Under the pieces are notes generated by a model. That model did not search any database. It saw only the letters and a program-made list of their open reading frames with translations, and was not told the DNA's origin. Positions 35,670 through 58,742 of a stretch of DNA of 64,000 nt are shown piece by piece. Made by a program: the position numbers and the translations under genes. Numbering within the stretch: the stretch's first letter is position 1; each line of letters starts with the position of its first letter. The stretch is from Trypanosoma brucei (lineage: Eukaryota): positions 2,944,001-3,008,000 of the forward strand of contig CH464491.1 in NCBI GenBank assembly GCA_000002445.1. The letters are read 5' to 3'.

Positions 35670-36626
35670 ATGGCTGTCGCTTACGAAGGACAACTGACGG
35701 GTCACCGTGGCTGGGTTACATCCCTCGCCTGCCCACAAACGCCTGAAACCGCAACGAAGGTGGTATCCACATCCCGGGACAAGACCCTTCTTTCATGGGG
35801 CCCTAACCCCGACCGGCACAGCAGTGAGTGCAGCTATGGCCTTCCCGACAGGCGTCTGGAGGGGCACAGCGCATTTGTGTCTGACGTTGCCCTTTCCAAC
35901 AACGGGAATTTCGCTGTGTCTGCGTCATGGGACCATTCCCTGCGCTTGTGGAACCTGCAGAACGGACAATGCCAATACAAGTTTCTTGGCCACACAAAGG
36001 ACGTACTCTCCGTGGCCTTCTCTCCCGACAACCGACAGATTGTCTCCGGTGGTCGTGACAACGCTCTGCGCGTATGGAATGTCAAGGGCGAATGCATGCA
36101 CACTCTGAGCCGCGGTGCTCACACCGACTGGGTGAGTTGTGTCCGCTTCTCCCCGTCTTTGGATGCCCCTGTCATCGTCTCTGGTGGTTGGGACAACCTG
36201 GTGAAGGTCTGGGACCTCGCTACCGGGCGACTTGTCACGGACCTTAAGGGACATACAAACTATGTCACATCTGTGACCGTTTCCCCTGACGGTTCCCTCT
36301 GTGCATCTTCCGACAAGGACGGCGTCGCTCGTCTGTGGGACCTGACTAAGGGTGAGGCCCTTTCTGAGATGGCCGCTGGTGCGCCTATCAACCAAATCTG
36401 CTTCTCCCCCAACCGTTATTGGATGTGTGCGGCTACCGAAAAGGGCATCCGCATCTTTGACCTGGAGAACAAGGACATCATCGTCGAGCTTGCGCCGGAG
36501 CATCAGGGCAGCAAGAAGATTGTCCCGGAGTGCGTTTCCATCGCGTGGTCTGCGGATGGTAGCACCCTGTACTCTGGGTACACGGACAATGTCATCCGTG
36601 TCTGGGGTGTATCGGAGAACGCGTGA
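35670..36626 (+). CDS. RACK1: RACK1 homologue, copy 2 (protein identical to copy 1)
   Basis: Identical 318-aa translation; one synonymous difference was seen. Confidence 0.92.
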   Translation: MAVAYEGQLTGHRGWVTSLACPQTPETATKVVSTSRDKTLLSWGPNPDRHSSECSYGLPDRRLEGHSAFVSDVALSNNGNFAVSASWDHSLRLWNLQNGQCQYKFLGHTKDVLSVAFSPDNRQIVSGGRDNALRVWNVKGECMHTLSRGAHTDWVSCVRFSPSLDAPVIVSGGWDNLVKVWDLATGRLVTDLKGHTNYVTSVTVSPDGSLCASSDKDGVARLWDLTKGEALSEMAAGAPINQICFSPNRYWMCAATEKGIRIFDLENKDIIVELAPEHQGSKKIVPECVSIAWSADGSTLYSGYTDNVIRVWGVSENA

Positions 36627-40620: not shown

Positions 40621-41039
40621 AGGGCATGATCCATCTGCACGTAAGCCGCGGCGTTTACCCAAATTGAGCTGTCATTCGCTTTCTCGGTTGGCGTGAATCA
40701 CGCGATAAATGTGTGAAGGGGGCTGAAGGATATTTTAGCAGCCCCCTGGGCGCGGTTGAGTGCGTATCGATAAAAGGGAGGGGGGCTGGGGGGCGGTCCA
40801 CGGCATGGGTGAGTGGAAGGGGACGTTTTGCCTCAGCTGCAGAGTGATACAATGTGCGTGGCCGCCACGTTACCCCCGCCTTTTTTTGGGGGGGAGCTTG
40901 CGAAAGGAATGGTCGATCTTTTCATATTTTTTATCGTATCAATGTTATTTTTTATCATTCTTCGTCTAGTCCTACTTCTCATGTGGTTAGACAAGTTATC
41001 GTTAGTAATTTGTTGGAAAAGGTGTAAGGTTTTTAAGTG

Positions 41040-43500
41040 TTATGACAGAATATGAGGAGAAAGAGCGGAAAACTAGTCTAGCAGCGCTTAGGAGGTTTGT
41101 GAAACATTGTGGTCCCACGCGATTTACATTCATTACCCGCATACCGTTGAGTAGAAATACAAATCAGGTAAACGGAACTTTACTACTGGAAAATGGAGAT
41201 CTGACTGTATGCGCTCAAGATATGAAAGCAAATATCGCGGATATAAGAGAGGATATAGCGTCTTTTAGTGTCCCTCAGCATCAAGATTTTATAAGAGCTT
41301 TTGAAGAAGCAAAAAATATGCTCAAAAATGAATTGGCAGCATTACAAGAACATAAATCAATATTAATGGTGCAATACGAAATGGCTCGTCCATAGTTGGA
41401 AGACGAACATTTAAGGATTTAACAAGCGGCAGTGAACCACTCAGCAGAAATGCAAGATGTTATACAAAATATGAAAAATCAAATGAACCGGATGCAGGTT
41501 GAAAACAATCAAATACTCAACTAATACGGTATGTTGCAAGGGATGTTAAACCAAAAGGAAACTGAAATACAGTATTGGAAATCTATGGTAAACTCACACG
41601 GGTCAACGAACAAAAAGGAGGAAGTGGACAGCTCATCTATGAAAAAGAAAGTCTATGATTGGAAAAGAGAAGAAAATGAAAAAAAAAAATTGTCACCATG
41701 TAATTCCTTGGATGATATTTTACGAAAGAACAGATGAATACACAACTCCAGGATAGGTTGGGTATTTTTCGGCAGTGCCGACGAAGAGTTGCAGGCGGAG
41801 AGGATAAAAACGAGGAGAGAAAATACACCTTCGAAGGATTCGTGGATTACGTGATGGAGACGTCTCCAGTACACATGTCGGCAGCATTTGAGGAAGTGTG
41901 CCCAATGAAAGTAAGACATGAAAGTTACTACTATAAGACTTGGAATATGTTCGTCAAACGGGTTCATACCATACCAGACGTGGGCCTTGCGGAGGCTTTA
42001 TTCCAACTGAGAAAAAAAAAAAATATATATATATATATACGGAACTGCGTATCCTACAAACGGCATCGATGTTTCCTCGAGTCAAAATCCAAGATATTCG
42101 TAACGGCCCAGAGTCATCACAAAATTCAAAAGACCAATTCTGGCAACTGGGGGAGAAACTAAATAAGGTAAGAGCTCCTTCCCCGGAAAAAGCCAAATGC
42201 TATGTGGCCGCATTGGACATTACAGTACGACATGTTATGTGAAGGAAACAGCGGTATGTAAATCAAAAAACGGGGTTCAACCCTCAGAGCAATAAATTGA
42301 GGGATCGTTAATGCCTTGGGGTCCAACCACATAAGAAAAAATTGAGTGGAAACATACCAAGAGAGAAGAAAGGAAAGAACACAAACACGCTTTACATCAA
42401 GGCGAAGAAATAAGGGCAGAAAGTTTGAAAAGGGTGAAAATAAAAGGATACTGGCTCAGATGGTCCGATCTCATCAGAAAAGAACTTCCTCCGTTAAAAA
42501 CCTCGGTAAACGGGGTAACGGTGATCCCGGCACCATCTCACGATCCGATCGTGGTGGCATTGGAAACAGAGGCCAACAGGATCGCCTTAAGTGCATGGAC
42601 AAAAACAACATGGGAGCAAAGGGTGTCCATACTACGGAGACTTTGCGAGTTTGCGGAAAAGAACAACATAGATTCGAGAAGGGAACGTCCCTTTATTCGT
42701 CCTAAGTTTACAATTGGCAAAAAGCAGCGCCGTCCAGTATAAAAGGACGTTATTAAGTTTATTGGCCGCTGTAAGAACACCGGCGCAGATGTTTCTGGCA
42801 TGCCTACAAAAATCAGCGACCAAGGTGCTGATAAAGCAGGCTAGCCCCATGGAGAGATGGGAACTCGACTAGATAAGCGATATGATGACTACGAATCGGG
42901 ATCGAGTGGCGTTGCGCCTGGCGCGGATTACGGCAAGTTGATGGGTAGAAATTGCCCTCCATCAAAAAGAAAATTTTATACCGCGTCCCACCGACAGAGA
43001 GGCTTCTCATACTAGATTGGGGAGCCCTTCCGAAAACGTTCAAGATCAACCTAAACATGGCGGCACGATACGTAGTAATAGGAGGAACAGACGCAAAAAT
43101 GGTTCGGGAACTAACGACAACATTGGAGGAAAACGAAAAAATTACCAACCTGTCCACAAAAGATTTGGAAAAAATACTCCGTCCCTATGGAATGACAGCA
43201 CACTCCATAAAAAGAGGGGCACTAGCCCATGCACCGACAGTGGTCTTCGAGCACGACCTCGACCCGCGTTTTTTAACCCAACTGGGAAAAACAGCGGATC
43301 CTTTGGAATTTCCACGCAGCACGGCAAGATATCTCGGGCATTGTGTAGCACTAATAAACAAATCAGAGCAATTGACTCAGCACGTGCAGAGGAGTTATAG
43401 AGATGGACTTCGGCCCGATGGGCGCTACCAACTGCATGTGGAGAAAGAGATCAAACGCTATTTCAGGGACATAGCATTCTGAGACGCACCCATCACACGA
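41040..43500 (+). other. Purine/A-rich degenerate region with fragmented coding-like ORFs; candidate decayed retroelement (DIRE/ingi-like remnant) or old pseudogene
   Basis: Several 100-180 aa ORFs lie in different + frames (41042, 41734, 42425, 42952) with protein-like but unrecognised composition. The + strand has strong A bias, with A12 and (AT)8 at 42012-42039. No intact RT or endonuclease motif was found. Confidence 0.25.
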
Positions 43501-46500
43501 GGGTGGCTACGGTGGAAGAAAACAAAATACCACTACGAAAAATATGCGTCAACACATTATCCTTGCACCGAATCAAAAACCGAATGAATAGCAAGGCGAA
43601 ACATCGTTTCGAGGAGGCGCGGGAGATCATGAGACAACCCACAAACCTGCAGGAAAGTGAAAGAGGATCTCAGCTAACAGTTTCTACCAAGGATGCCAGA
43701 ATCATGAAGAACGCAGGCATCGTACAAACGGTATCGGCAGCAACCCCCTTGGTTTGAGGTCTGGGAAGAGCTGTCCTCTACAAAGTGCCTTTCCACCTCG
43801 TTTACTTCCCCAACTTTTGCGACATCGGGAATTTAAACAGCCAACTGCGACCCCCGATATTCCGATTTCGACCGAATGCGGGTATCCTTTGATTCCTAAA
43901 CCCTGTAGCTGGCGAGGCCAACCTCCTTGACGTAGTGCTTGGGTTATGACGAATGGTTGCTGCACTCCTTTGTCACGTTCAACTTCTCCGACTCTCCACA
44001 TGGAAACTTTCTAACAACCCCGCCACTGACAGGATGATTCCGCCTGCCGCATCCGTGTCAGCCGCTTCGCCCTATAGGGTTAACCTTGTCCACTGCGCTT
44101 TGCGGGGCTTGCTGGGAGGGTGTCTGGGAGTGTCATCGCTGACTCTCCATTTTGTAACCACTTCGGTTGTTTTTTTCCCCTCTCCTTGTATCCGCACTTG
44201 CTGCGCGGATGGTCAGCCACACGTTTGTTCACGCTGTGTGGCACAGGGACCGCGCCTCTCATTAGATGCTCCTCGAAGTTTCCAGTTGGCAAGCGTCCCG
44301 CAACAAGTCCCCTCCCGCGTGTCAGATTCGCCATCCTTGCAACGGCAATACTTCCTATCTGACAGACTTTTCTCGCGTCTGCCTGTTTTGTGTCTTCCTA
44401 TTCCTCCACGGGCTCCCTCCTTAACTTTCTTCGCCAGTTTTCAACCCTATTCCCCCTTTTCAAATGGGCACGGGGTAAGTCCTCTCTCGAAAATGCGCGG
44501 TTGCAAGCAAAGCGCCTTCGAGCCTCACCACCACAGGTTATGGGTTCGCTTTGCCCTCTCCTTTTCTCTGTCTAGGAGTTTGTGGCCTTCGATCCCACCC
44601 ATTGCCTCGAGGCGATGCGAGTAACTATTTTTCATATCCTCATCACCATCTGGGGTCCCGAACAGGGTAATTGAATATTGCCGCAGGGTGCTGACTTCCC
44701 ACTTTTAGCCAAATGCACACCCCCATTTCGCAATGTTCGCGCGGCGAACCTACAAAATTTTCCCTTTCTCTTAGTCGCGATCTACGCTTTAGCGCCGTTG
44801 TCAACCCCCCTTCCCCGAAGAAACCGTGGGCTCAGGTATGCACACGCTAAGATTGTTGTCTTTTGTCCTGTTTTCCATTCCCCGCAGCAAGGAGTTCACG
44901 TTTTCCAGCGTTTCGTCCGCCACTGCCCCAGGGGAAGATGCGGTTGGGCACCGTACAAACCACCAGATTGCAGTGTCCTAGCCCCAGTTTCAGTAAGTGG
45001 AAACGGTGTGCCTAATCCGCTGGTTGGCGCCACTAAGCTTTGCTTTTGCCGTTTCTGCCTTCGAAAGCACTCCTATTTACACTCATTCCCGCATTTGTTT
45101 GTTTGGGGGGGGGGGAGGGAAGGGAAGTGCCACGCAGTGTCACCAAGAGTTTTTCAAGGTTTTGGCATAGACATGAACAAAGATGGCATCCCTCACCCGT
45201 GGTGGGCGGTTCTTCTTTGCAACGAACCGAATACCGACGGGAAGGTCACTCGTGCGTGTATCTGCCTAGCCTTGAGCAAACCCCCATACACAGCACATTC
45301 CTCGTCACACCCCCGCTCAGTGGGACCGGCGCGCTAGCAGCGTCAGTCTCTTACGTGCTGCGCTGTCGAATTCTAACTCCCCCGCCCGCCTCCACACGAG
45401 TGTATCAGCCTGCAATGCGATATGCGTTGCCGCTGGCTTCGTACACGGTGAAAATAACTTCTCTGTGTGGGCATACGCGGCTTTCCCTATGAGCCGCCGA
45501 TGCAATTCAGCGGTGATGATGTGTGGGCGGCACGGTCTGCGCATGCTCATTTTCGTTGGAAAACACAGTCGCACGCCACGTGCTTCGTTTGGCGTCACTT
45601 ATTGGACGTGCCCGCCCAGCCACCGTCACTCTAAACTGCCCACAAACGGCGAAGATGTATTAGGTTGCCACGATTGCCGCTGCTTTCGCATCGTTTGAGA
45701 AAACGAACGCGCGTCCTGCGTCGCCGTCGAGGAACCAACCCCATCCTTTCCACCTACCGGCAAAAAGAGGCACGCCAGTAAAACGGAAAATGAGATGCCA
45801 AATTACAGAGGTGCGCTGCCTGGCGCGACGGAGTCGCTGGCATCAGTGCATGATAATCGTTTCTGACCGGCACGTGGGGTGCTTAGTAGACCCGCTCCGT
45901 CACTGCGGAAGCACCTCGAGAAAGATTTTGTAGCCACCTGGGGCTGCAAGTCCCCGTACTGACACACGTGAACAAAATCAGAGACCGCGGTTTGGCATCG
46001 CCGTGGCAAATCACGTTGTGCACATAGCATGACCTGTTACCTACGCCTCCATAGCGCTCGGGCCTGGCACCTTGGCTCGCGGAACTGCGACAAGCCCGGT
46101 CCCTCTGGAATCAAATTTCATTCAAGGATGACACCGCCGCTGGAGTGTGTGTAGAAACAAGCGTCCACATGCGGCCCGCGTGCACCCAACTTTACCCTCG
46201 ACACCTAGGAGATCGGAAACGCCAACGAGAACTAAATTAACGTTATTGGGGGAAAAAAAAACACAACCGATGTCGCGTCCTACGGTCCTGATGTGGGGAA
46301 GGAAAAGGGTGACCCCCTGACCGCGGAAAAAATCGTTGGTGAGTGTGCGGTGCATACTTAGGCGTAGCGTATCCCGTACACCTGCGGATGTTTCTCCATC
46401 ACTCGACGTTTGACGCGTTAAAAGTAAAGACAAAACAGTCATACCTTTGGGACGAAAGTTAGGTGCGCTTAAGAAAAAAAAGGGGGGAGGGGCGACCGTG

Positions 46501-46657
46501 AACCCTTATCGTTGAAAGAACGAAAGACGCATGAATCGGCTGGGCAAAGATTTGTAGGAGTGTGCCACTGTTATCAATGCCCCTCAGGGGTTCGAGCATC
46601 ACTTGTCAAATCGGTCTGAACAGCGCGAGGCCGGCAAAATTTTGGTTGCCGCCACGC

Positions 46658-47016
46658 GTCGGAGAGGGGTGGGGAGTATGTGGCGCTAGTACCCGCCGTC
46701 AGCATCGCGTGGGCTTATTTTCTTCTGGGTCTTCTTCTGAGCACTTACCCTGTATGAAAGGCTGGAGTGGCAGAAAAGACGTGTCCTTGATTTATGCGTA
46801 CCACACCTGCCTCTTACATTTTCTGTTGTTGCATACGTGTGTGCGGGAAGACGTGGTGACTACTCCGGTCTTCTCGCCGAGCACCTCATGTGCCTTGCTC
46901 GAGTGCTGAGTCTACGCGGCGCGACGGGTGGGCAGTAGGGGGGGGGGCTTGTACATAGAAAAAAAAAACTAGAGCCACCGGATGCTCTTTGTGCGACCCT
47001 GGTGAAAGTGAGAAAG
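46658..47016 (+). repeat. Direct repeat copy A (~358 bp), 150 bp beyond the 3' end of the minus-strand sialidase-family gene
   Basis: Near-identical to 52250-52607. It contains G10 and A10 homopolymers (gggcagtaggggggggggcttgtacatagaaaaaaaaaactagagccacc). Confidence 0.9.
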
Positions 47017-47165
47017 AGATAAAGTAAAACCAGTAACCGGAATTATCCGGTGAAGCAGTCGGCCGTGTGTCACCGTCATTCCTAACATGTGACCCCTTAG
47101 AGAGACTGACTCGAGAACCAGAGCGATTTCTATTTGCATTCTGAGTCCGTACTGTCCTGCAGTTT

Positions 47166-49211
47166 TCAAAAAGTGACAACAAAGATCATAGCAGCAAGCG
47201 CCACATATACGTGCGTTGCGTTATCAATTTGCCCGTTGCTGTGACCCTCCTGTGGTTCATCAACAGCAACTAGAGGTGCCTTTGACGGGCATCTAGGCCA
47301 GTACGTTCGCATGAACATCACTTGGACTTCGGCAAGGGTCAACTCCCTTTTGAAAAGAACAGCACTCTTCACCAGTAGTTTTCCATTGGGAGTAGCTTTC
47401 TTCTCTCCATATCCTCCAATATAGAAATGCATAACATCTCGCACTCGCCTAACAGTCTTGATACCGCTTCCCGTCCTCGAGAAGGCGGCACCATCGATAT
47501 TAACAGTGAACAAACCATTGTACATGGTTATCGTAACTTGGTGAGTCTCGTTGTGGATGGAGGATCCAAATGTAGGCACATGCCGGCCCCCAAACGTTAC
47601 GTACCATTTGTCATCCGATGTGTACGACACTTCAAGACACTCGTCGACACTTCCCTCGCTGATGACAACGCCCACAACCGGGATTTTTTCACTCACTCGG
47701 TCAGGCACCTCCACAGTCACCCCAAGTGTAAATTCATAATTTGCAAAGTTGTAAAGCTGAGCCCCCGTGTGGTTGCTCACAGTCCATGTGGCACCCCGAT
47801 TAGGGCCACTAAATAATATACCATTCAATGTTTTCTTAGCCCCAACAGCTTTGATGCTCACGCTGTTATATGTGTCCTTCCACTGATCACCATCTAAATC
47901 ATTCAAAAAAAGCCCAGCGGGTGCATCATCAACACAGTTTACGCGGTCGGTGGCTCCTCTGGTTCCGGAACGGAGCACACTCTCGGTCCTCCATTTTTCC
48001 ACAACCGCTTTTATCTTTTCGAGTTCATGATCTAAATGCGCAACCTTGCCTATGTCATAGGGTACCGCGTTGCTTACCTCATCATGAAAGGTGCCAGTTT
48101 TTTTGTAGAAGTAAAGCAGTTTGCCGTTGCTGTACAGCAGTGTCCCTTCACCATCTATTCCACCTTCAAGAGTGACGTGACCAATATCAAAAAAATGTTC
48201 GCCATCAGATAGCCAAATATTGAGCCCATCCCCATATGAGTCAGTCGACGGTGCGCGCCGGGTGAAAATCAACAACCTTTTCCCTTCAATTGTGACAACA
48301 AGCAAGTTGTGTGATCCACCTTCGGCTGCACCACTGGCCCACACACGCGAGAACGTCCTCTTGGCTTCCGTCCATTCCCTTCCCATATTGATGGATTCAT
48401 AAACAGCCAAGTGACCGGTATACGAGCCGTTGCTCAACATAAGCCTCCCTCCCCATTCAAAGATGTTGCAATTCTCCTTGCATACATGAGCTTCTAGGGG
48501 TGTCGACTTCCAGTGGATACCGTCGTCCACGGAATAAATTATTGTGGGTACGTCTTCGCTATTCTCGTTCTTTAAACAAACGAGAAATACAAGTAAACCC
48601 CCTTCAGTGACGATTGCATCCCTTCTTCCTCGGAAAAACTTGTTCACTGGCCCCGCTTGAAGTCCAGTGGGGAAGACCCCCTTCAACGGCACCTGTTTGT
48701 TCCACTCTACACCAGCTGATTGCGAAAAAAAACCTCTCGACCTTACAACTTTCCCAGAAATTAGAAGGAGACTATCTTTGCACTCACTTATCGTTACCTT
48801 GCCTAAGCCATCGCCTTGCACATCATACCCGCTTGCAAGCACATACACATTGCTCCCTTTGGCAACTACTTCAAGTGGTATTGGATAGGAAGAATACTCC
48901 ATCTCCTTTCTTCCTTCAATTATGTTGTCCTTTTTCCATGTCCTCCCCCCATCTATGCTCGAAAGTGAAAACGTTCTTAGCCTTACTTCACCAGCCAGGT
49001 GATATCTGAATTCTCCGATTGCAACCAACACACCTTCAGCCTCGACGACGGAATGAATATGTACGGCATCAACGACGGAGAGCAAGAAACTGCCCTTTTC
49101 TTCCCCGTCGAAAAGATCAAATTCATAAACATCCGGTGTCTTAGCAATACTACGTGTCCAGCCGATGTTGCACAGGACAAGTAACAGTAAAATGAGTATT
49201 TGCATTCTCAT
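47166..49211 (-). CDS. Trans-sialidase/sialidase-family surface protein (681 aa), probably catalytically inactive
   Basis: The N-terminus has a signal peptide (MRMQILILLLLVLCNIGW). Asp-box motifs S-x-D-x-G-x-T/E-W occur at SIDGGRTW, SVDDGIHW and SINMGREW. The stretch VYESINMGREWTEAKRTFSRVWASG...TIEGKRL...NIWLSDGEHFFDIGHV...GTLLYSNGKLLY aligns with the T. cruzi TS catalytic domain, including the conserved Tyr. The C-terminal lectin-like domain carries a degenerate VTVxNVxLYNR motif (LLVKSAVLFKRELTLAEVQVMF). The hydrophobic C-terminus (ALAAMIFVVTF) suggests GPI anchoring. ATG and stop codons were verified on the minus strand. Confidence 0.8.
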   Translation of the reverse strand: MRMQILILLLLVLCNIGWTRSIAKTPDVYEFDLFDGEEKGSFLLSVVDAVHIHSVVEAEGVLVAIGEFRYHLAGEVRLRTFSLSSIDGGRTWKKDNIIEGRKEMEYSSYPIPLEVVAKGSNVYVLASGYDVQGDGLGKVTISECKDSLLLISGKVVRSRGFFSQSAGVEWNKQVPLKGVFPTGLQAGPVNKFFRGRRDAIVTEGGLLVFLVCLKNENSEDVPTIIYSVDDGIHWKSTPLEAHVCKENCNIFEWGGRLMLSNGSYTGHLAVYESINMGREWTEAKRTFSRVWASGAAEGGSHNLLVVTIEGKRLLIFTRRAPSTDSYGDGLNIWLSDGEHFFDIGHVTLEGGIDGEGTLLYSNGKLLYFYKKTGTFHDEVSNAVPYDIGKVAHLDHELEKIKAVVEKWRTESVLRSGTRGATDRVNCVDDAPAGLFLNDLDGDQWKDTYNSVSIKAVGAKKTLNGILFSGPNRGATWTVSNHTGAQLYNFANYEFTLGVTVEVPDRVSEKIPVVGVVISEGSVDECLEVSYTSDDKWYVTFGGRHVPTFGSSIHNETHQVTITMYNGLFTVNIDGAAFSRTGSGIKTVRRVRDVMHFYIGGYGEKKATPNGKLLVKSAVLFKRELTLAEVQVMFMRTYWPRCPSKAPLVAVDEPQEGHSNGQIDNATHVYVALAAMIFVVTF

Positions 49212-52200
49212 TGCGAAAAACTCTTAGGGTACGGAAATAGTCTCCCTGCAGATGTGCGCGGTGTGTGCTTGATCGTTGTGAGGGCACCCTGAGTACTTTG
49301 GCGGTGGTACTCTTCAACTGGCTGCGTGCGGGTAGTGTTTTACAGAAAGGGGACAAATTACCTAACTTATGTATATAGCCGAAAAAAAGGGGTGACAACA
49401 CAGCACTTACAAACGGTGACATCATAAATATTAGGTACGAATGCTTATGTAATATGTAGCGGTGCCCTCAAATACTGAAGCGATCAAGGAACCAAAGTTG
49501 GTTTTGCACCACATCGGTGAGAGGTCCCCGATACGTCATGCGAGCCCCTAGAAGACTGCATTAACAGTGACAGGTCAATGCACTAAGATATCCTGAATCA
49601 CCGGCGGTGTATAGCTTGGCAAAAACTTCTCGCTTCCACTATTAGTTGCTGCAAAATTTTGCACGGCACTTGAAAAATATGTGGTATAAAAGCAAAGAAA
49701 AAGTGTTCGAGCCAAAACGCATTGCACCGAAACACTGTCTTCTCCCTCACCCCAACCCTGCTACGTTAACAGGTCACCAAAGTTCGTCACCGAACAAGGA
49801 CAAGATGTTCATTATTAGGAAGCAACTAATCCTTATGCACCTCGAGTTGCAGAAACTATTTCTTTTTTTGGCACCCGAATAACCCAGTGTATTACAACTC
49901 TTTTTTTTAAAAAAATGAAGTAGTAATAGCCTTTTCTCCATTAGTTTTATTCGTCCATATGGCGAAATTGAACCTGTCACTTGCATATAGCCAATCTTTC
50001 TTCACCCATCGTCGGCGTGCGTTTTCACATTTACTGCCCACTTGTGTGTAAAGACGGACGCACGAAACAATGGTTTGCAGGACAACGAGGGAAATCAAGC
50101 CATACCATAGCCGCCTACTTTCTAAACCATCTCGTATCTGTTTGCACATTCAAGGGGAATGGTTATTTCCCACTGGCTGCTACAGTCAGTGAATCGTAAT
50201 AAAGACGCTACACGGGTATTGAAAGCACAGGCGAAAATACGTAGGACAACATCTAATCGACACAATCTTCGCGGCAATTATAGTCTTTTCCCTACAATGG
50301 GAAACGCACTCCGCATGGTGACCCGCGTACAAACGCATGGATCTGCGTTTGTGCATGTTTGTTAAAAAAAAAACAACAAACAAACTATGTTAGCCCATCA
50401 TTTCAAAGCATCCATTTGCCGTAAGAAAGGTAAGCCCAGACCGCGGTTTCCCCACAACTTACCGCCAACACGAAGCAGCCGCTCGCAGCCGCGCCCCAAC
50501 GCAAACGCATGGGACCTCTCGCCCGTTGGGGCGTGAGAGGTCCCCGTGAGTTTCGGTGGGCAGGCGGGGGTAACAACGTGAAAGCTCCCTCCGCCCATTT
50601 CTGGGCTATGATGAAATATTAGCTCCGCCACCCCTCCTGAAGCTTCCCTTCCGCATACCGGGCGTCGCTTGCTGCCACCGCGAGGAAATACGAATCACCG
50701 ACGACATATCGGCGGGTGTGGTGGGGGAAGCCAGGGGGTGGACAACTAAACAGAGTGGTATCCCAACAAAGCGCAGCTGGCCCCCCGCCGTCCGACGCCG
50801 TAGCTTGCGAGCAAGGGGGGACCGTTACGGAGATGAGGAATGCTGGTGGTTCTTTAGTTATCCCATACATACGGGACAGCGGGCCCAGCGTCATGAAAAC
50901 CCCTTTAAAACGCCTAAAGGGACGGAAGCAGCGACTGTTGGCCCCGAAGCACGCCCACAAGAGCATGGAGGTGCCTTGGAGGGCGCTCCGCAGACTGGCA
51001 TGCAATTTCTTTGTCCTTTTAGTCGTGTTAACCCCTCACCTTTTCCTGTGGAAGGCGTGTCGGCTGCTGATCTGAACGAAGCGGTGAATGACCACTGCCA
51101 CTCCCGGCGCTTGGACGAGCGGCCAATTAAGGGCATGACCTTCGCAAAGAAAGTTGGAGGGCCGGGGCGCTATATGGGAAAACCCCCCTCGACGACGTGA
51201 GGAAGCTGTCGCACACGATTGAATCTAGTTCCGTGAGTTTCCCATGAAGGTCCTTAATATGTTTTGATTTCGCTCCAGAAGCTTACTTCGCAACCTTTGA
51301 GTGATTGATGCGCTTTCGCAAAGATTGCTCCACTTTCACCTGTTAACATCCTCGCTCTTTGAATTTCAAGGGTCACAATCATTAGGTTTCGAGGAATCAC
51401 TCAAAAAAACCTCTACCAAGCCCGGAAAATTCCCCTTCCAGGTGCTGTCAGAGGAAGTGCTGCTTCCGAGATGCGTGGTCCTTTGTTCGACCCCCTCCCG
51501 TCCCTCGAGAGGGTGTCGTCCACTCCATCTTTGGAGGAATCGGATAACGGCGCCCCCGTCCTTTACAGCGGAAGAGTTCCTCCTCCCAACGAAAGTTCTG
51601 CCCTAGCACCCAATTTACTGGCTAACGACTGGGAATTTGCCGTTCCGTGTTGGTATTGAGTACTCCCTCCACTTTAACCCTTCTTGATCGCCATGGCTGT
51701 GCGTCAGCTTTGTTTCGACCGCTTTGCAAAAAAAGAAAAAAAAATGCCATCCCCTCCCGAGCCGTCCTCCGTGCTCCTTCGCCGAGGAAAAGCGTATTTT
51801 ATCTGCCGGGGCCGGGAGCGCCTCTAGGGGAAGGAAAATAGCGTAAACCCCCTCGCCAGCGCGGTGGTAGTTGGTGGTGGCACTAGCTCAAACAGGTGCG
51901 GAGCTCGCACAAAACTTGTTGTAGGTTTTTTTTTCGCGAGGATGGGCATCGTCTGGCAAAACCGAGAGGTGGCGAGCGCCGTTGCTATTGCCCCCAAAAC
52001 TGGGAGACTTCAGTCAGCGGTGTAGCGATTAAGGATGCGACGCGTACGGTTGTCGCCGCCGCTCCTCCGGTTCCCAGGTTCCCTCTTTCCGAAAAAAAAT
52101 TTGTTCAGTAAGGCAATCCCACTGGCAATTCAGACCTGCCGTCTCTTTGTTTCCTACAGTGAACCTTCGTTATTATTATTATTATTATCACAATAGTTGT

Positions 52201-52249
52201 ATGTGTGAGGTTATCCGGAGTGCGCGTGACTCAGCCGAGCGTATGGGCT

Positions 52250-52607
52250 TCGGAGAGGGGTGGGGAGTATGTGGCGCTAGTACCCGCCGTCAGCATCGCG
52301 TGGGCTTATTTTCTTCTGGGTCTTCTTCTGAGCACTTACCCTGTATGAAAGGCTGGAGTGGCAGAAAAGACGTGTCCTTGATTTATGCGTACCACACCTG
52401 CCTCTTACATTTTCTGTTGTTGCATACGTGTGTGCGGGAAGACGTGGTGACTACTCCGGTCTTCTCGCCGAGCACCTCATGTGCCTTGCTCGAGTGCTGA
52501 GTCTACGCGGCGCGACGGGTGGGCAGTAGGGGGGGGGGCTTGTACATAGAAAAAAAAAACTAGAGCCACCGGATGCTCTTTGTGCGACCCTGGTGAAAGT
52601 GAGAAAG
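52250..52607 (+). repeat. Direct repeat copy B (~358 bp), ~3 kb upstream of the sialidase-family gene start
   Basis: Essentially identical to 46658-47016, as also shown by the identical ORF translations 46562/52147 in the track. Confidence 0.9.
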
Positions 52608-55085
52608 TTTCCAACGGTCTATTCTCGGGTTACCTCTTCTGGATTTTTACCGAAGTAGTCCCGCTGTCTTTACATGTGCGTAGCGACGCTGGTTGCCGCT
52701 GCATGTTTTGTCTTCCGTCTTAAGGTTGCGGTGGCCCAAAAGTCTACAAGCTGTTTGGAGGCTACTGTGGCGCACGGCGTCTGTTTTGTGGCCCTGTCGA
52801 ATGTTGCTTTTTGTCATTTGTGTTGCGTGCATGTCGTGAGCGGTGGATAAAGATATGCGACATTTACAGTATATGCTGGTTTCAACAGGTAATGCTGGTG
52901 CCTACTAGGTCGTAAAATGTCGTTACGGGACCTTGCAAATTTTGGACGGCGTCGAATAAGAGGAGTGCCGAATGCAAAGGTGTTGTTGCACTAACCTTAG
53001 GAATGCGAAAATTTCGTGTTGAAGTACCTGCTGCATTCGCATACAGGTAGAGAATTGGTTGATAATACTTTCCGGCCTCCGAGTTACGTCACTCTGTTAG
53101 AGAGCAGAGTTGATTTTTTATTAATGTGGCAATCGGGACGTATATGGTACATGTCAACCCCTTGTTGCCACGGTGAGGTCTGTGACAGGTGTGCGTGCTG
53201 TTTTCACGTTAGAATCGTGTAATAAGTGTTTACAAGGTTGGGAAATCTGACATTTCTTCCACCCAAATTCTCAAACGCGTTTCCTCGTATGGAATCTGCG
53301 TTGGTTTTTGGTTGATTTGTATACACAGGACTAATGTTTTTTGTACTCGACGGTGAGGGTTGCCGGAAATATCAGGATGGTGTTAATAACCCTCCCCCCA
53401 TCAAGGATAATAAGCAAAAGGAGGGAGGCGGGAGCGGGGGGCCATTTGCTGACTGTTTGGCCTTTGGCGCGGAGAGGGGCTTGACGAGGTACAATGTGTA
53501 GAAATTTGAAACTTTTGTTTTCTATCATTGGAATTATATATATTTCTCCGTGTAGTGAAATGATCCTTTGACGGAACTTGAAAGTTTTTTTAATGATCTC
53601 TCTCTCTGTTTTTGTGGAGTAGCAGCCGCTTTTCTTTCATTTACTTTGAATGTATTAATGTGCTTAGGGGAAAAGACGCTTACTCGTGTTTCCCTGCTGG
53701 TACACTCACCGACATTTTATTAGGACAAACACACCCGCGTATATAAACAAAACAATTTTGATGTTGCGGCGGTTGCTACTGAAACAATGGTGCCAGCCAA
53801 ACGGTGGATGACTGGGATAAAACTTCGATACCATTGTGGAACGAGTAGAGGGGAAATAAAGTTGGTGCTGCCCTAGCCGTCCCAGAACTCTTTAGATCCA
53901 CCCCGCTGGGACGACCCCATCTGTATACCATGGGATGTGATACCCAATTGGCACTCTTTTTGCATTTCCCCCCCTCCAGGATAGGAGCCGGGGGCGTTTA
54001 TCATGCTCTTTTAAAATTTCTGTTGATAGGTCTTCACCATTTTCAGAAAAGAAACAAAACAGTTCGTGCAGGCAGGGTTCCGTTCTAAGTCGCTTGGACT
54101 GGGAGCGGACTTGCTAAACGTGTCTGATTTCTGACACACTTGGTGTGATCGTCACCGTAAACACAGACGTCTTGGCGATGCTCCCCCCGTAACTGGCTGA
54201 TTGTAGGTTGCACACATTTTGCACGGCTTGTTACCACGGCGTGTGAGGGAGGTGCGATACTAACGACCATAGAAAAACAATCGAAAAAAAGGTCCGCCCC
54301 TTCGTTTGCCATGAGTGAGATTATGTGAGCTACCTCAGCGATCTTTCCTGGATTCAGTGAGAATGCGTATTGAATCCTATTGAGACCCTAGGGATGCACG
54401 GCGGTGTAATTGTCCATAGATGTCTATAACCCGTGGTACATTTCCAAGTAAGGTATGTTGAACGCATTCGTTTATCGGTCGTCCGTTTAGCAATGGCCAA
54501 GAAGGGTTAAAAACTCAAGACATTGGAGCCTTCGCGATTGTGGTGTGGGGAATAATGACGTATACATGTACGTAATGTTCGACGGCATTTGGCCCATCTC
54601 AAAATGGAGTTCGTTTTGGTGGGTTCGGACTAAACATGGACTTAATTTATTAAAGACGGTGAGCAGATGATTTGTTGCAATACGTAAATAAGTTTCCCCA
54701 AGGAGAAACCTGGCGAATATTTTTGGCATGTGATAGCATATTAACCGTCAAATGTAACACCCCATTCAGCGGCAAAACCTCTTTCTGAAACCTTGCTCGT
54801 TCGTTTTACTACCATCACGCTCATATCCGGCCCTTAAGGGGCTGAAAGGTTTGCAAGCGGCTCCGTCGATAATTTCCTATCGACGTGGTCTATTCGCATA
54901 GCATGTGTTGTATCATACTGTGTTCATTTTTGTCGATGGGTGCATGTGTGTGGGCGCTTCGTATTTTTTCCAATTTTACTTCATCCGAGCAACGAAGTCA
55001 AATAACACCATTCGAAGCAAACTATGGAACCCCTGCGTTGTCATCGCAATTTAAGAAGTAGACTATGCACGTGTAGACGCTAACA

Positions 55086-55110
55086 CCCCCTTTTTTTTTT
55101 GGGGGGGGGG
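55086..55110. repeat. Homopolymer triad C5-T10-G10 (cccccttttttttttgggggggggg)
   Basis: Read directly in the long intergenic region. It is self-complementary at its ends and could form a hairpin. Confidence 0.8.
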
Positions 55111-56279
55111 TGATTGATTGAAAATATTGTTGTTGACATTCCGATCATTACTTTGGTTACCGGAGTGGCAATCCCGCCTGAAAGCGTCGCGCAGGTAAGC
55201 CTTTTTATCATTATGTATGCGTTTCGGTATATATATATATTAGGCTCAGTACTTGCCGTCTCTGTTTTACTCGGGTTATGGCTGCTGCTACCCTACTGTT
55301 ACCTTGTTATTTGTCAGCGGTTGGGGTCTCTTCATTTTTACAGTGGAGGTGCTTGTGGATAAGAGGCACCTACGAACTAACGTAGGTTTGTACCAATCAC
55401 TCACTCATGCCATCTGCCATGAGGCGGGTGCTAGCGGAGATAGGCACGTCTTTCCCGTAGAGTAACCTGCGCTTTTTTGACTGCTGCGGTGTTTGGTTAG
55501 TGCAATCTACAAGTTTACGTGATTATTTGTGGTAGTTCCTTTTTTTTTTTTGAGGAAAGAAAAGTGTCTTTGCACCATAACGCTGTATCCAAGCTATTGC
55601 CGGCGCCATGGAAAGATATTTTCATATGTATATTACATACAACTTAATTTCCAGGGAATGCGCTCAGTGTATGAATGCTGTACACATTCTTTTTTTTTTT
55701 TGCATTCTTTGCCTGGAAACAGCGGTAAATGTGAACTGCCTGAAAGTGTGTCTAAGTTATTTTTTCCATTCACTTCACCGCCCAACTCGGTGTGGTTGAG
55801 TTTCCCATGGCCCAGTCGGTGTGATATCTGTTATTACATATTTTTTGCGACCATTTTGTTTCGCGTTTTCTACTTGAGCATGTTATGACCATGACCACCA
55901 AAAGGATCAGAATTACCATTTCCCACTGTGTTTTTCTCTACTAACGCCTCAACGCCAGTGCCGCGCCAGCAAACATCTTATATCATAGGGGAAGAATTGT
56001 TTGCAGTCTGAATCAATTGTGTTTGGGTAGTACTGGATCGTGCTCCTGTTTTCACATTTTGAGATGTTGCGAGTGAAAAGGATACCAAGGGACCGCTTAC
56101 CGGCTTCTACTTACTCGGCCGCGGCTGTACGCCTCTTGTAAGCATATTCTTAAGTTGCTCCCTTTTCATGTCTCGGGTGGGTGTTTAATGAAATCGGTTT
56201 ACAAACTACTAGATTGCACTTCAGATGATAGGAGGGAGCTGGAACTCAAGACAGTTGGAGTGCCCGTTTCTGGGTAGCA

Positions 56280-56292
56280 AGGGGGGGGGGGG
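56280..56292. repeat. Poly-G tract (13 G)
   Basis: Read directly. Similar G-runs occur at 11075, 45104, 46931 and 52531. Confidence 0.8.
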
Positions 56293-58742
56293 AAATTGAT
56301 GTTCTTTGTTCTAAGAAGTTGCTTTTGTATGCGGGATGGAGGTTCGACAAGGCTTCTGCTTTGCGGTAGAGGTTGCTGTTAGCACTGATTTCACTCGTAC
56401 TTGGGGGGAACCCTGCCATTAATAAGCAGTATGTTTGAGGGAGCAGCTCATCTTTCTTATTATTGTGCAGTGCCCCGTTCCACCTTTCTGCTGGGTCCGC
56501 GCAGTTCTCTCAGCAACGTGTGCGCGGATCTAATCCATAGATTCAAGGAACGAAGTCTTTTTCGACGGTCATAGCTGTTGAACTTCCGGCTCGGTTGGGT
56601 CATGAGCAGTGAATCGTGGTAGCGGTGCACCAGAGGTGTGGGTCTCTGTTACAATTTTAAAGGTTGCTATTGGTTTGCACGATCACATCAGAGTTGACAC
56701 AGCACTTGCACTCCTGCTGGGGTCCAGGGTGTATTGAGTGACTTGCACCTTCCTGGTGCCGTCGGTTACCGGTTCCTGCGAAAAACTTTTTGGCACGTGT
56801 TGACGAACCCCGCTGCTGGTGTGTGGTGTTCTGTGCAAACTTTTTTTTTTTGAGCAGCACTAATTTCCAGCCAGCTGAGGATCTTTTCTACAGCAAAGTG
56901 GGGAGGGCAGGGAGACCTCGTGCTGGGACTGATGAAAACGCGCTTTCTTAAAAACATGGTTAGTGTACCGCTCTCCTTGTTGTTCCGAAAGCGAGTATGT
57001 TTCGGAGTTGTCTTGCCTCCAGCAACATGATTTGCAGTGAATTTCAACTGCTAAAAACAATGTGAATGCCCAAGGCGTAACATGCTTGCTGTTCCGCCAA
57101 ATAAACTAGTGTGTGATTGTGCTAAAAGGAAATGCAAAAGGATTTGAAACCTTACGTTCAGATCTTAAAGAACTGTGAGACCCCTTTTTTTCTGGATGGC
57201 ACTCAATTACTTCCCTGGTTGGAGGAGTCACAGTTACAACCTGGCCAACTTACATGTCGTAGTACAAGCCCCCCTTTCAAGAAGGTAGCTCTGGGTTAAG
57301 CAGAAGCTGTTATGTGATGCCTGCTATTTATACCGCGGTTCTGACTCACTTCTTTTCGTGCTATCAACAGCGGTTTCTTTGCACTGGTCGACGACTAGTG
57401 TGATTTAACGGGAATTTGTTGTGGTAGGTAGCCGAAATTGGCTTCAGGTGCATCACGTAAAATTCCTCACCAGTTGTATTTTCGTCGGCACATCCTCGTC
57501 ATCGGAATCTGTTGTCGCACTACCTTGAGTGGATCCGTGACAGAGTGGGTAATTTCCGGGGCGTTGTTCTGGTGCTTACTAGAGTGGGCTCGTTGTTTTC
57601 AAGTCAAACATATCTTCAGGATAAGGGGCGCCAATAGGCACGTGGCTACCCCCTCCCCTAGTGAGAGGATTTGTCGCGCTTTTGGCGGGTGTATCCAGCC
57701 GTTTTTTTTTTGCTGAACCGCTACGGCTCGTGGGGCTTGGCATTATGCTGGTGCCGAGTGCCTATGCTTAACAGAAGAGTCGGCAATCGTTAAGTGTCCC
57801 CTGTGTTGCTGAAGGAGGGGTCTTCTGGTGAACCGGCTCCGTTTCGCTAAAGTTCCCTTAGTTTTCGGCGGCGGCGTTACGTGGTCAGAAATTGTTGTGA
57901 TTACTGCCAAGGCACTGCGGTAGTTGCTGTGTTAACACGCTCAGGGACTACTTAATCTTTTACTGAGCTGTGCGCTCTCGTGTTTGCACCGTTCTCCATG
58001 GGTTGCCTAACGGAACAGCACTGTGTGCGGCAAGTCGAAGGAAGTAATTAGCCATGCAGGTGAGAAGATGCCACCCACACCAAGTGGTGATGTTACTGGT
58101 TCCGTGGGTGGTTATATCGACTGAAGCAAACAAAAACATATGGTTATAGTATTGGTTTTCGCAACTGTCGCTTCAGCTGCGGCGGCTGACGAGGCCCACA
58201 GGCTGTGAAGCACTCGTCGGTGTCGACCCTTTTTATCTTTCTTGAGACCGCACTTGTCAAACATTTCATCTTGATACCCCTACTTGTAGGCAGCGCGGCG
58301 CCTTTGTGGTTTGACATTTGGCACCACTAAACATGTGTGTTGTTGTCTCAGGGTTCGGTCCTCCGGCTACGTTTAACGGGGGTTATGTGAGAATGATAGG
58401 GGAGGGTTTCCGTTTTTTCGCCACCATCTGGGTGATGTGGGTGGTGGCGTTATCAACTGAAATACAGTTGCTGTTTGCGCGCGCTGGCGTCAGCAAGGGG
58501 GGATATCGTTATGGTCTTAGTACTTTTATTATTTTACTCGCACAAGTGTTTCTTGGTACGGAATGGAGTCGTACTCTTCGTATCAAGTTTCTTACGCTTT
58601 ACCATTGCTGCTTAAGTAAAGAAAAAAATAATCACCATTATGATCTGTATCTGTTTGTACCACGCTTCAGTGAAGGCTCAAGGTTATCTACGTAGTAATA
58701 CACGTGTATATTGCGCGTGGGAGGAGAGGCGCTGGTAAACGG

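What the first reader, a model, noticed from the sequence alone, without database searches (positions are those of the whole stretch)
47166..49211. Trans-sialidase-family protein appears to lack the arginine triad and FRIP motif, so is probably a non-enzymatic (lectin-like) member
I aligned the protein by eye to the T. cruzi trans-sialidase catalytic domain, which I recalled from memory. Where TcTS has HSFRLPALVNVDGVMVAIADARY (FRIP, Arg35), this protein has HIHSVVEAEGVLVAIGEFRY. Where TcTS has DYRRRLVYESSDMG (Arg245 region), it has YTGHLAVYESINMG. Where TcTS has RDRLNLWLTD (Arg314), it has GDGLNIWLSD. The fold markers are retained: three Asp-boxes, the VYES..MG..W.EA..T.SRVW block, and the nucleophile-position Tyr in LLYSNGKLLY. 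Loss of all three carboxylate-binding arginines would abolish sialic-acid catalysis. That would make this a TS-like binding protein or pseudo-enzyme.
Basis: inference. Interest (0 to 1): 0.5.

Follow-up and report, generated by a model that had tools for sequence, protein, structure and literature searches.

The report
Known inactive trans-sialidase-like gene of T. brucei
This is the already catalogued Trypanosoma brucei gene TbTS-like D2 (Tb927.11.11410), a surface protein that keeps the trans-sialidase fold but has lost the residues needed to cut or transfer sialic acid, so the finding is correct but ordinary.

Summary
The ORF at 47166-49211 (minus strand, 681 aa) is real. It is 100% identical to T. 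brucei brucei TREU927 XP_829206.1/Q383D7. The literature lists it as Tb11.01.3240 = Tb927.11.11410 = "TbTS-like D2".

Three formal alignments agree: phmmer against the TcTS crystal-structure sequences, an 82-sequence MAFFT alignment and a 6-sequence L-INS-i alignment. All three triad arginines are gone (Arg35->His51, Arg245->Gly262, Arg314->Gly327), and FRIP reads VHIH. Equal-length, ungapped spacing between conserved anchor blocks rules out a register error.

The nucleophile Tyr342 is not retained; it aligns to Glu355. The Tyr in "LLYS" aligns to TcTS Tyr347. Asp59 is Glu75. Asp96, Tyr119, Trp120, Gln195 and Trp312 are also lost.

The gene is not decaying:
- The ORF is intact in three T. brucei-group genomes.
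- The T. congolense orthologue TconTS-Like2 is colinear and 48% identical.
- dN/dS is about 0.2 between brucei and gambiense.
- One paper reports the protein in bloodstream forms.

Published work already calls these TS-like proteins degenerate and probably non-functional as enzymes. Verdict: correct, already known, low interest. A binding (lectin-like) role is only inferred.

The parts
47166..49211 (-). Complete CDS of the TS-like protein (681 aa plus stop) = T. brucei Tb927.11.11410 / Tb11.01.3240 / TbTS-like D2
   Evidence: The ORF is listed. It is 100% identical to XP_829206.1/EAN80094.1/Q383D7. Its first codons match 'Tb11_240FL' in the supplement of PMC3855035. PMC10064699 describes Tb927.11.11410 as a trans-sialidase gene in reverse orientation within a polycistron.
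49149..49211 (-). Predicted N-terminal signal peptide (aa 1-21, MRMQILILLLLVLCNIGWTRS)
   Evidence: Assigned by sequence inspection. Mean Kyte-Doolittle hydropathy is 2.5 over aa 3-17. No dedicated predictor was run.
48120..49052 (-). Catalytic-type beta-propeller domain (Pfam BNR_3, aa 54-364), catalytically degenerate
   Evidence: E=4e-31. It aligns to the TcTS catalytic domain.
49053..49064 (-). FRIP-motif equivalent, reading VHIH (aa 50-53). His51 replaces Arg35.
   Evidence: The T. congolense orthologue also has VHIH.
48987..48989 (-). Glu75, at the position of the acid/base Asp59
   Evidence: The 82-sequence MAFFT alignment places Gly74 here, one residue off. Glu is conserved in TconTS-Like2 as Glu85.
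48936..48959 (-). Asp-box 1, SIDGGRTW (aa 85-92), canonical
48510..48533 (-). Asp-box 2, SVDDGIHW (aa 227-234)
48426..48428 (-). Gly262, at the position of triad Arg245
   Evidence: A 16-residue ungapped spacer lies between the EW and VYES blocks in both proteins.
48372..48395 (-). Asp-box 3, SINMGREW (aa 273-280), degenerate (Asp->Asn)
48231..48239 (-). Ser325-Tyr326-Gly327, at the positions of Trp312-Leu313-Arg314. The acceptor-site Trp and the third triad Arg are both lost.
48147..48149 (-). Glu355, at the position of the nucleophile Tyr342
   Evidence: The spacer from WLSD is 24 residues and ungapped. Glu is also present in TconTS-Like2 (Glu364), in my alignment and in the published DNA alignment.
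48132..48134 (-). It aligns with TcTS Tyr347.
   Evidence: Most of the 82 aligned family representatives, enzymatically competent or not, have Tyr in this column.
47337..47915 (-). C-terminal lectin-like beta-sandwich domain (Pfam TS_C, aa 433-625)
   Evidence: E=2.4e-36. It aligns to the TcTS lectin-like domain.
47346..47378 (-). Degenerate equivalent of the TS-superfamily VTVxNVxLYNR motif, reading LLVKSAVLFKR (aa 612-622)
   Evidence: Alignment to TcTS 'VTVNNVLLYNR'.
47169..47210 (-). C-terminal hydrophobic tail VYVALAAMIFVVTF (aa 668-681), a probable GPI-addition signal
   Evidence: Assigned by sequence inspection. Mean hydropathy is 2.57. It is preceded by small residues (SNGQIDNATH). No dedicated predictor was run.
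46656..47016 (.). Copy A of a 361-bp direct repeat, 150 bp downstream of the stop codon
52247..52607 (.). Copy B of the same 361-bp direct repeat, 3.0 kb upstream of the ATG
   Evidence: Both copies are also present in T. b. gambiense.

Best explanation
The ORF is the Trypanosoma brucei gene TbTS-like D2 (Tb927.11.11410, formerly Tb11.01.3240). It encodes a secreted, probably GPI-anchored, two-domain protein with the trypanosomal trans-sialidase architecture: a six-bladed beta-propeller of the BNR_3 type, a linker helix and a TS_C lectin-like beta-sandwich.

The sialic-acid machinery has been dismantled. The three arginines that clamp the sialic-acid carboxylate are His51, Gly262 and Gly327. 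The Tyr342 nucleophile is Glu355. Its partner Glu230 is Asn247, or Glu246 with a one-residue shift. Asp96 is Pro112. The acceptor-site residues Tyr119 and Trp312 are gone.

It therefore cannot hydrolyse or transfer sialic acid by the GH33 mechanism. That step is shown by alignment; no activity was measured.

The protein is nevertheless kept by selection, with the 'dead' propeller as conserved as the lectin-like domain. It most likely acts as a non-catalytic surface protein, either ligand-binding or structural. This function is an inference. The canonical sialic-acid pocket is unlikely to be the binding site.
For: Identity:
- 100% match to XP_829206.1/Q383D7.
- The supplement of PMC3855035 lists Tb11.01.3240 as TbTS-like D2, and its sequence begins like this ORF.
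- PMC10064699 describes Tb927.11.11410 as a reverse-oriented trans-sialidase gene next to what the window shows as a cullin.

Fold:
- Pfam BNR_3 and TS_C both match.
- phmmer gives E about 2e-71 over aa 37-634 against TcTS and T. rangeli sialidase crystal sequences.

Loss of catalytic residues: three independent alignments agree.

Maintenance of the gene:
- The ORF is intact in TREU927, T. b. gambiense and a third T. brucei-group read set. Against gambiense there are 7 synonymous and 5 non-synonymous differences, giving dN/dS of about 0.21.
- T. congolense TconTS-Like2 is full-length, colinear and 48% identical. Identity is 54% in the propeller and 48% in the lectin domain. pN is 0.33 against a saturated pS of 0.77.

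Literature:
- The transcript is low in procyclic forms, and the protein was detected by mass spectrometry in bloodstream forms (PMC10064699).
- TS-like proteins are called 'degenerated and probably not functional', and knock-out of an inactive T. congolense TS-Like2 halves endothelial-cell activation (PMC3795030).
Against: - No enzymatic or binding assay of this protein was found or run.
- Glu75 and Glu355 sit at the acid/base and nucleophile positions and are conserved in the T. congolense orthologue. A different chemistry is therefore not strictly excluded.
- The within-species dN/dS rests on only 12 substitutions. Between species, synonymous sites are saturated, so constraint is shown only qualitatively.
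- I could not confirm that 'TcoTS-Like2' in PMC3795030 is the same gene as 'TconTS-Like2' (TcIL3000.0.21990) in PMC3855035.
- The signal peptide and GPI signal were judged by hydropathy only.
- The AlphaFold model was too poor to use (mean pLDDT 46).
Confidence: 0.85

Rival explanations
1. It is a re-tooled enzyme. The propeller pocket has been rebuilt around two carboxylates, Glu75 at the Asp59 position and Glu355 at the Tyr342 position, plus His51. It acts on a substrate other than sialic acid, for example a neutral sugar handled by a classical two-carboxylate glycosidase mechanism.
For: His51, Arg69, Glu75 and Glu355 are identical in the T. brucei protein and T. congolense TconTS-Like2. The propeller is at least as conserved as the lectin domain, 54% against 48% identity.
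Against: Among the 26 pocket and neighbouring positions compared, 14 are identical between the two orthologues (54%). That is the same as the domain average, so the pocket is not specially conserved. The other key positions differ freely between orthologues: Pro112/Leu, Cys212/Glu, Asn247/Tyr, Gly262/Gln, Ser325/Lys and Gly327/Arg. No such activity is known in this family.
Confidence: 0.05
2. It is a sialic-acid-binding lectin that uses the canonical pocket, like the naturally inactive T. cruzi trans-sialidase (Tyr342His). That protein still binds sialic acid and beta-galactose.
For: The same fold and family. Arg53 (Arg69) is retained. PMC3795030 argues that inactive TS forms act through lectin properties involving alpha-2,3 sialic acid.
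Against: The T. cruzi inactive TS keeps the whole arginine triad, Asp59, Glu230 and the acceptor site, and differs essentially at Tyr342. This is established knowledge; the 3PJQ sequence shows the single Tyr->His change. In the present protein all three carboxylate-clamping arginines, Asp96, Gln195, Tyr119 and Trp312 are replaced.
Confidence: 0.05
3. It is a functionless relic: an expressed or silent pseudogene-in-waiting left over from family expansion.
For: [quoted passage not shown] Most members of this family lack catalytic residues. Only 7 of the 82 aligned representatives keep both the triad and Tyr342.
Against: The 681-codon ORF is intact in three T. brucei-group genomes, with dN/dS of about 0.2-0.3. 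A full-length colinear orthologue exists in T. congolense despite saturated synonymous divergence. The protein was reported in bloodstream-form proteomes (PMC10064699).
Confidence: 0.08

Closest known systems
TbTS-like D2 (Tb11.01.3240 / Tb927.11.11410) of Trypanosoma brucei, as catalogued in PMC3855035 Table S2 and mentioned in PMC10064699
   Same: It is the same gene. The protein is 100% identical to the TREU927 entry. The 5' coding sequence is the same. The reverse orientation within the transcription unit is the same.
   Different: Nothing differs. The window is simply this locus.
TconTS-Like2 (TcIL3000.0.21990) of Trypanosoma congolense
   Same: It is the orthologue: colinear over the full length and 48% identical. 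It shares VHIH in place of FRIP, Arg at the Arg53 position, Glu at the Asp59 position, GEGTLL with Glu at the Tyr342 position, and the VYESIN-GREW and IWLSDG blocks. It was named 'Like' because catalytic residues are missing (PMC3855035).
   Different: In my alignment TconTS-Like2 keeps an Arg at the Arg314 position (Arg336) and has Gln at 245 and Tyr at 230, whereas the T. brucei protein has Gly, Gly and Asn. Table 2 of PMC3855035 numbers the last two catalytic positions differently (L339, L375) from its own supplementary alignment.
Trypanosoma cruzi trans-sialidase (TcTS, PDB 1MR5/1MS0/1S0I) and T. rangeli sialidase (1N1S), both active GH33 enzymes
   Same: The two-domain architecture and Asp-boxes are the same. 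The match is colinear over about 600 residues at about 28% identity with E about 2e-71.
   Different: This protein lacks Arg35, Arg245, Arg314, Tyr342, Asp96, Tyr119, Trp120, Gln195 and Trp312. Asp59 is Glu. It has no SAPA repeats.
Naturally inactive T. cruzi trans-sialidase (Tyr342His; PDB 3PJQ), a sialic-acid/galactose-binding lectin
   Same: It is a catalytically inactive member of the same family, and it is the best PDB hit.
   Different: That protein differs from the enzyme essentially at one residue and keeps the sialic-acid pocket. Here the whole pocket is replaced, so the lectin mechanism cannot simply be transferred.
TbTS-like D1 (Tb927.2.5280), the paralogue on chromosome 2
   Same: It is another T. 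brucei TS-like protein. It is about 31% identical over aa 160-634 and was detected in bloodstream-form membranes (PMC3795030).
   Different: In my alignment D1 still has Arg at the 35, 245 and 314 positions and Glu at 230, but it lacks Tyr342, Asp59 and Arg53. The pattern of degeneration is different.

Membership tests
Trypanosomal trans-sialidase/sialidase superfamily (structural membership) | N-terminal sialidase-type beta-propeller domain (Pfam BNR_3) | tested here: met
   PF13859 matches at E=4e-31 and 109 bits against a cut-off of 27, over aa 54-364.
Trypanosomal trans-sialidase/sialidase superfamily (structural membership) | C-terminal lectin-like domain (Pfam TS_C) | tested here: met
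   PF22925 matches at E=2.4e-36, over aa 433-625.
Trypanosomal trans-sialidase/sialidase superfamily (structural membership) | Colinear full-length similarity to solved TS and sialidase structures | tested here: met
   phmmer gives E=2e-71 to 5e-69 against 3PJQ, 1MR5, 1S0I, 2A75, 1N1S and 1MZ5, covering aa 37-634.
Trypanosomal trans-sialidase/sialidase superfamily (structural membership) | Asp-box (SxDxGxTW) repeats | tested here: met
   Three are present at the same places as in TcTS: SIDGGRTW, SVDDGIHW and the degenerate SINMGREW.
Trypanosomal trans-sialidase/sialidase superfamily (structural membership) | VTVxNVxLYNR signature motif near the C-terminus | tested here: not met
   The aligned stretch reads LLVKSAVLFKR. 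Only 3 of the 9 specified positions are identical. The motif is degenerate, as it also is in TconTS-Like2 (LMVRNVALYKR).
Catalytically active GH33 sialidase / trans-sialidase | Arginine triad (TcTS Arg35, Arg245, Arg314) binding the sialic-acid carboxylate | tested here: not met
   The positions hold His51, Gly262 and Gly327 in three alignments.
Catalytically active GH33 sialidase / trans-sialidase | FRIP motif | tested here: not met
   It reads VHIH at aa 50-53.
Catalytically active GH33 sialidase / trans-sialidase | Tyr nucleophile (Tyr342) with its Glu230 partner | tested here: not met
   Tyr342 aligns to Glu355. Glu230 aligns to Asn247 in MAFFT or to Glu246 in phmmer, a one-residue ambiguity.
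Catalytically active GH33 sialidase / trans-sialidase | Asp acid/base catalyst (Asp59) | tested here: inconclusive
   Glu75 in two alignments and Gly74 in the third. This is a conservative replacement at best.
Catalytically active GH33 sialidase / trans-sialidase | Trans-sialidase acceptor site (Tyr119, Trp312) | tested here: not met
   Tyr119 aligns to Leu136 (Gly in the larger alignment). Trp312 aligns to Ser325.
Catalytically active GH33 sialidase / trans-sialidase | Measured sialidase or sialyl-transfer activity | not testable with these tools
   This needs recombinant protein. No published assay of this protein was found in the papers held. Nakatani 2011 and Montagna 2006 are not held.
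T. cruzi-type inactive TS lectin (Tyr342His) | Intact sialic-acid pocket (triad, Asp59, Glu230, Asp96) with only the nucleophile changed | tested here: not met
   Of the pocket positions, only Arg53 is identical, and Asp59 is conservatively replaced.
TbTS-like D2 / TconTS-Like2 orthogroup of African trypanosomes | Sequence identity with the catalogued T. brucei gene and orthology with the T. congolense gene | tested here: met
   100% identity to XP_829206.1. The 5' end matches 'Tb11_240FL'. It is 48% identical and colinear with TconTS-Like2 translated from the published alignment. A chromosome-11 T. congolense fragment, TCIL3000_11_12070, is 47% identical over the C-terminal part.
GPI-anchored surface protein | Cleavable N-terminal signal peptide and C-terminal hydrophobic GPI-addition signal | tested here: inconclusive
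   Both termini are strongly hydrophobic, with mean hydropathy of 2.5 and 2.57. No dedicated predictor or experiment was available.

The most novel reading that the evidence does not exclude
The dead sialidase pocket has been rebuilt rather than merely lost. His51, Arg69, Glu75 and Glu355 are conserved between the T. brucei and T. congolense orthologues. Glu75 sits at the acid/base position and Glu355 at the nucleophile position. Together they could form a new two-carboxylate site in the propeller that binds or cleaves a ligand other than sialic acid. That would make TS-like D2/Like2 a neofunctionalised member of the family specific to African trypanosomes.
Probability: 0.05. Interest if true: 0.6.

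Novelty: already known. Interest (0 to 1): 0.1.

Why it matters
It matters little as a discovery. The gene is annotated, it is named in the literature, and it has been recognised for more than a decade as a TS-like protein lacking catalytic residues. In this family catalytic degeneration is the rule: only 7 of the 82 aligned representatives keep the triad plus Tyr342.

The residual value lies in four points:
- A clean residue-by-residue map, which corrects the nucleophile assignment.
- Evidence that the 'dead' propeller is still under constraint in two species.
- The gene's odd placement as a lone reverse-oriented gene.
- The 361-bp repeats that bracket the gene and are being homogenised.

The function of this protein and its T. 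congolense orthologue remains unknown. That question could matter for host-parasite interaction if the reported endothelial-activation phenotype of a T. congolense TS-Like2 knock-out applies to this orthogroup.

Tried and rejected
- **Word-indexed homologue search.** It gave only 3 hits: the protein itself and two T. cruzi group I TS. The exhaustive HMMER search was needed to see the family. The nearest non-self cluster representative is only 32% identical (T. grayi).
- **AlphaFold2 on a 5-sequence alignment.** Only window-derived sequences and a few others were admissible. The model had mean pLDDT 46 and pTM 0.42, too poor to use, so no fold search was run. The fold assignment rests on sequence.
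- **First MAFFT L-INS-i run on 82 sequences.** It timed out and was replaced by the --auto mode.
- **Between-species dN/dS.** Synonymous sites are saturated (pS 0.77), so only pN/pS could be stated.
- **Guessed new-style gene IDs.** Tb927.11.11460/70/80 turned out to be other genes; Tb927.11.11480 is a quorum-sensing gene. The correct ID, Tb927.11.11410, was found by way of the neighbouring cullin TbCul-E, Tb927.11.11430.
- **Nakatani 2011 and Montagna 2006.** These papers named the TS-like genes but are not held.
- **Searches of the window that found nothing.** tRNA and Rfam scans were empty. No tandem repeats were found in 38-64 kb. No second TS-like copy or fragment is present (tblastn). 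No inverted repeats of 30 nt or more lie around the gene.
- **Register shift rejected.** The nearest arginines are Arg256 (6 residues before Gly262) and Arg318 (9 before Gly327). None lies within 15 residues of His51. The spacers between conserved blocks are ungapped, so a register shift cannot rescue the triad.
Full report
**What is there.** The window holds a single uninterrupted 681-codon ORF on the minus strand at 47166-49211. Its product matches Pfam BNR_3 (aa 54-364, E=4e-31) and TS_C (aa 433-625, E=2.4e-36). It aligns colinearly over aa 37-634 with the crystal-structure sequences of T. cruzi trans-sialidase and T. rangeli sialidase (E between 2e-71 and 5e-69).

**Which gene it is.**
- The protein is 100% identical to 'trans-sialidase, putative' of T. 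brucei brucei TREU927 (XP_829206.1, EAN80094.1, UniProt Q383D7) and of T. equiperdum. It differs at 5 residues from the T. b. gambiense DAL972 protein.
- Table S2 of Gbem et al. 2013 (PMC3855035) lists Tb11.01.3240 as 'TbTS-like D2'. The sequence 'Tb11_240FL' in their supplementary alignment begins ATGAGAATGCAAATACTC..., which is the start of this ORF.
- The neighbouring 818-aa cullin at 58704-61160 fits TbCul-E, Tb927.11.11430 (PMC12816148).
[quoted passage not shown] It is poorly expressed in procyclic forms, and the protein was seen by mass spectrometry in bloodstream forms.
- The window shows exactly this layout. All 19 other ORFs of 200 aa or more are on the plus strand.

**Catalytic residues.** I numbered TcTS as in the crystal structures. 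The offset was verified on a T. cruzi group I sequence, in which all 17 checked residues fell on the expected letters. Three alignments were used: pairwise phmmer, MAFFT on 82 full-length family representatives from an exhaustive HMMER search, and L-INS-i on six sequences that included the T. congolense orthologue.

| TcTS residue | Role | This protein |
|---|---|---|
| Arg35 (FRIP) | triad | His51 (motif reads VHIH) |
| Arg245 | triad | Gly262 |
| Arg314 | triad | Gly327 |
| Tyr342 | nucleophile | Glu355 |
| Tyr347 | not catalytic | Tyr360 |
| Arg53 | sialic-acid contact | Arg69 (retained) |
| Asp96 | pocket | Pro112 |
| Gln195 | pocket | Cys212 |
| Trp312 | acceptor site | Ser325 |
| Tyr119, Trp120 | acceptor site / pocket | lost |

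All three alignments agree on these assignments. Two positions move by one residue between alignments. Asp59 aligns to Glu75, or to Gly74 in the large alignment. Glu230 aligns to Asn247, or to Glu246 in phmmer.

**The register cannot be off.** There are exactly 16 residues between the conserved EW and VYES blocks in both proteins. There are exactly 24 between WL(S/T)D and (V/L)LY. Asp315 pairs with Asp328 immediately next to position 314. The nearest arginines (Arg256, Arg318) lie 6 and 9 residues away inside ungapped stretches.

The central observation, that the triad and FRIP are absent, is confirmed. The statement that the nucleophile Tyr is retained in 'LLYS' is wrong by five residues. That Tyr is the equivalent of Tyr347, a position where most of the 82 family representatives, including ones that lack the catalytic set, also have Tyr.

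**How ordinary this is.** Only 7 of the 82 aligned representatives keep the triad together with Tyr342. Catalytic degeneration is the normal state of this family.

**Is the gene alive?**
- I retrieved the DNA of the T. b. gambiense allele and of a third T. brucei-group allele from a public read set. Against gambiense there are 7 synonymous and 5 non-synonymous differences, giving Nei-Gojobori dN/dS of about 0.21. Against the third allele the counts are 8 and 9, giving about 0.33. The counts are small.
- I rebuilt T. congolense TconTS-Like2 from the published supplementary alignment. It translates without stops to 690 aa.
- It is colinear with the T. brucei protein and 48% identical overall: 54% in the propeller and 48% in the lectin-like domain.
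- Synonymous sites are saturated (pS 0.77) while pN is 0.33.
- It shares VHIH, Arg at the Arg53 position, Glu at the Asp59 position and the GEGTLL stretch with Glu at the Tyr342 position.
- My numbering reproduces H61, R79, E85, L122, T146, E222, Y257, C258, Q272 and G308 of Table 2 in PMC3855035. For the last two catalytic positions their table (L339, L375) disagrees with their own supplementary alignment and with mine (R336, E364).

So the lineage lost catalysis before T. brucei and T. congolense split, and both have kept a full-length protein since.

**The pocket as a whole is not specially conserved.** Of 26 pocket and neighbouring positions, 14 are identical between the orthologues, which equals the domain average. 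Several key positions differ freely. This argues against a maintained alternative active site. It does not exclude one, because Glu75 and Glu355 are both conserved.

**Mechanism.**
- Shown by alignment: the carboxylate clamp, the nucleophile and the acceptor site of the GH33 trans-sialidase mechanism are missing, so sialidase or trans-sialidase catalysis is not expected.
- Inferred from sequence features only: secretion and GPI anchoring, from hydrophobic N- and C-termini.
- Inferred: a non-catalytic binding or structural role.
- The T. cruzi Tyr342His 'lectin' model cannot simply be transferred. That protein keeps the sialic-acid pocket, and this one does not.
- The lectin-like domains of active T. 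congolense enzymes bind oligomannose and galactosyl glycans (PMC4608562).
- Knock-out of an inactive 'TcoTS-Like2' reduced endothelial activation to about 46% (PMC3795030). I could not verify that this gene is the orthologue studied here.

**Comparison and novelty.** This is not a new member or a new variant. It is the catalogued gene itself, and its non-enzymatic nature has already been stated for the TS-like group (PMC3855035, PMC3795030). Interest is therefore low.

**Side observations.**
- The gene is bracketed by a sharply bounded 361-bp direct repeat (46656-47016 and 52247-52607) with one difference between the copies. Both copies exist in T. b. gambiense. Seven positions differ between the subspecies but are shared by the two copies within each genome. 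This indicates gene conversion between the copies.
- The bracketed 5.2-kb segment contains the TS-like gene and, upstream of it on the same strand, a small ORF (window 50619-51005) that corresponds to a gene called in gambiense.
- A 318-aa WD40 gene is present as two tandem copies whose Pfam match tables are identical.

**Dead ends.** The AlphaFold run on the few admissible sequences was unusable (mean pLDDT 46), so no fold search was made. tRNA, Rfam and tandem-repeat scans were empty. The two papers that first named the TS-like genes are not in the held library.

Noticed in passing
window 46656-47016 and 52247-52607: A sharply bounded 361-bp direct repeat brackets the TS-like gene, with one difference between the copies. 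One copy lies 150 bp past the stop codon and the other 3.0 kb upstream of the ATG. Both copies are also present in T. b. gambiense (L003 12196-12554 and 6609-6964). Seven positions differ between the subspecies but are shared by both copies within each genome. This points to ongoing gene conversion between the copies. The repeats might mark the boundaries of an inserted or inverted cassette, or allow its loop-out.
   Followed up: partly
window 45338-58703: The TS-like gene is the only ORF of 200 aa or more on the minus strand in the 64-kb window. It sits between a 1.8-kb gap that would be a convergent strand switch and a 9.5-kb ORF-poor stretch that would be a divergent strand switch before the cullin gene. 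PMC10064699 already remarks on the reverse orientation. How this mini-unit is transcribed was not examined. A small minus-strand ORF (window 50619-51005; a 115-aa gene is called at the corresponding place in gambiense) lies upstream of it on the same strand.
   Followed up: partly
window 34365-35321 and 35670-36626: Two tandem 318-aa WD40 beta-propeller ORFs (RACK1-like) give Pfam match tables that are identical in every score.
   Followed up: no
window 47166-49211 (aa 75 and 355) compared with TconTS-Like2: Glu occupies both the acid/base (Asp59) and nucleophile (Tyr342) positions in the T. brucei protein and in the T. congolense orthologue. Table 2 of PMC3855035 lists L375 and L339 for the Tyr342 and Arg314 positions of TconTS-Like2. 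That paper's own supplementary alignment and my realignment give Glu364 and Arg336.
   Followed up: yes
window 41000-43500: This is a low-GC stretch (0.38-0.49) with strongly positive AT skew (up to 0.34) and only short ORFs, lying between the 2OG-Fe(II) oxygenase-like gene and the 223-aa ORF. It is probably a long UTR or intergenic region.
   Followed up: no
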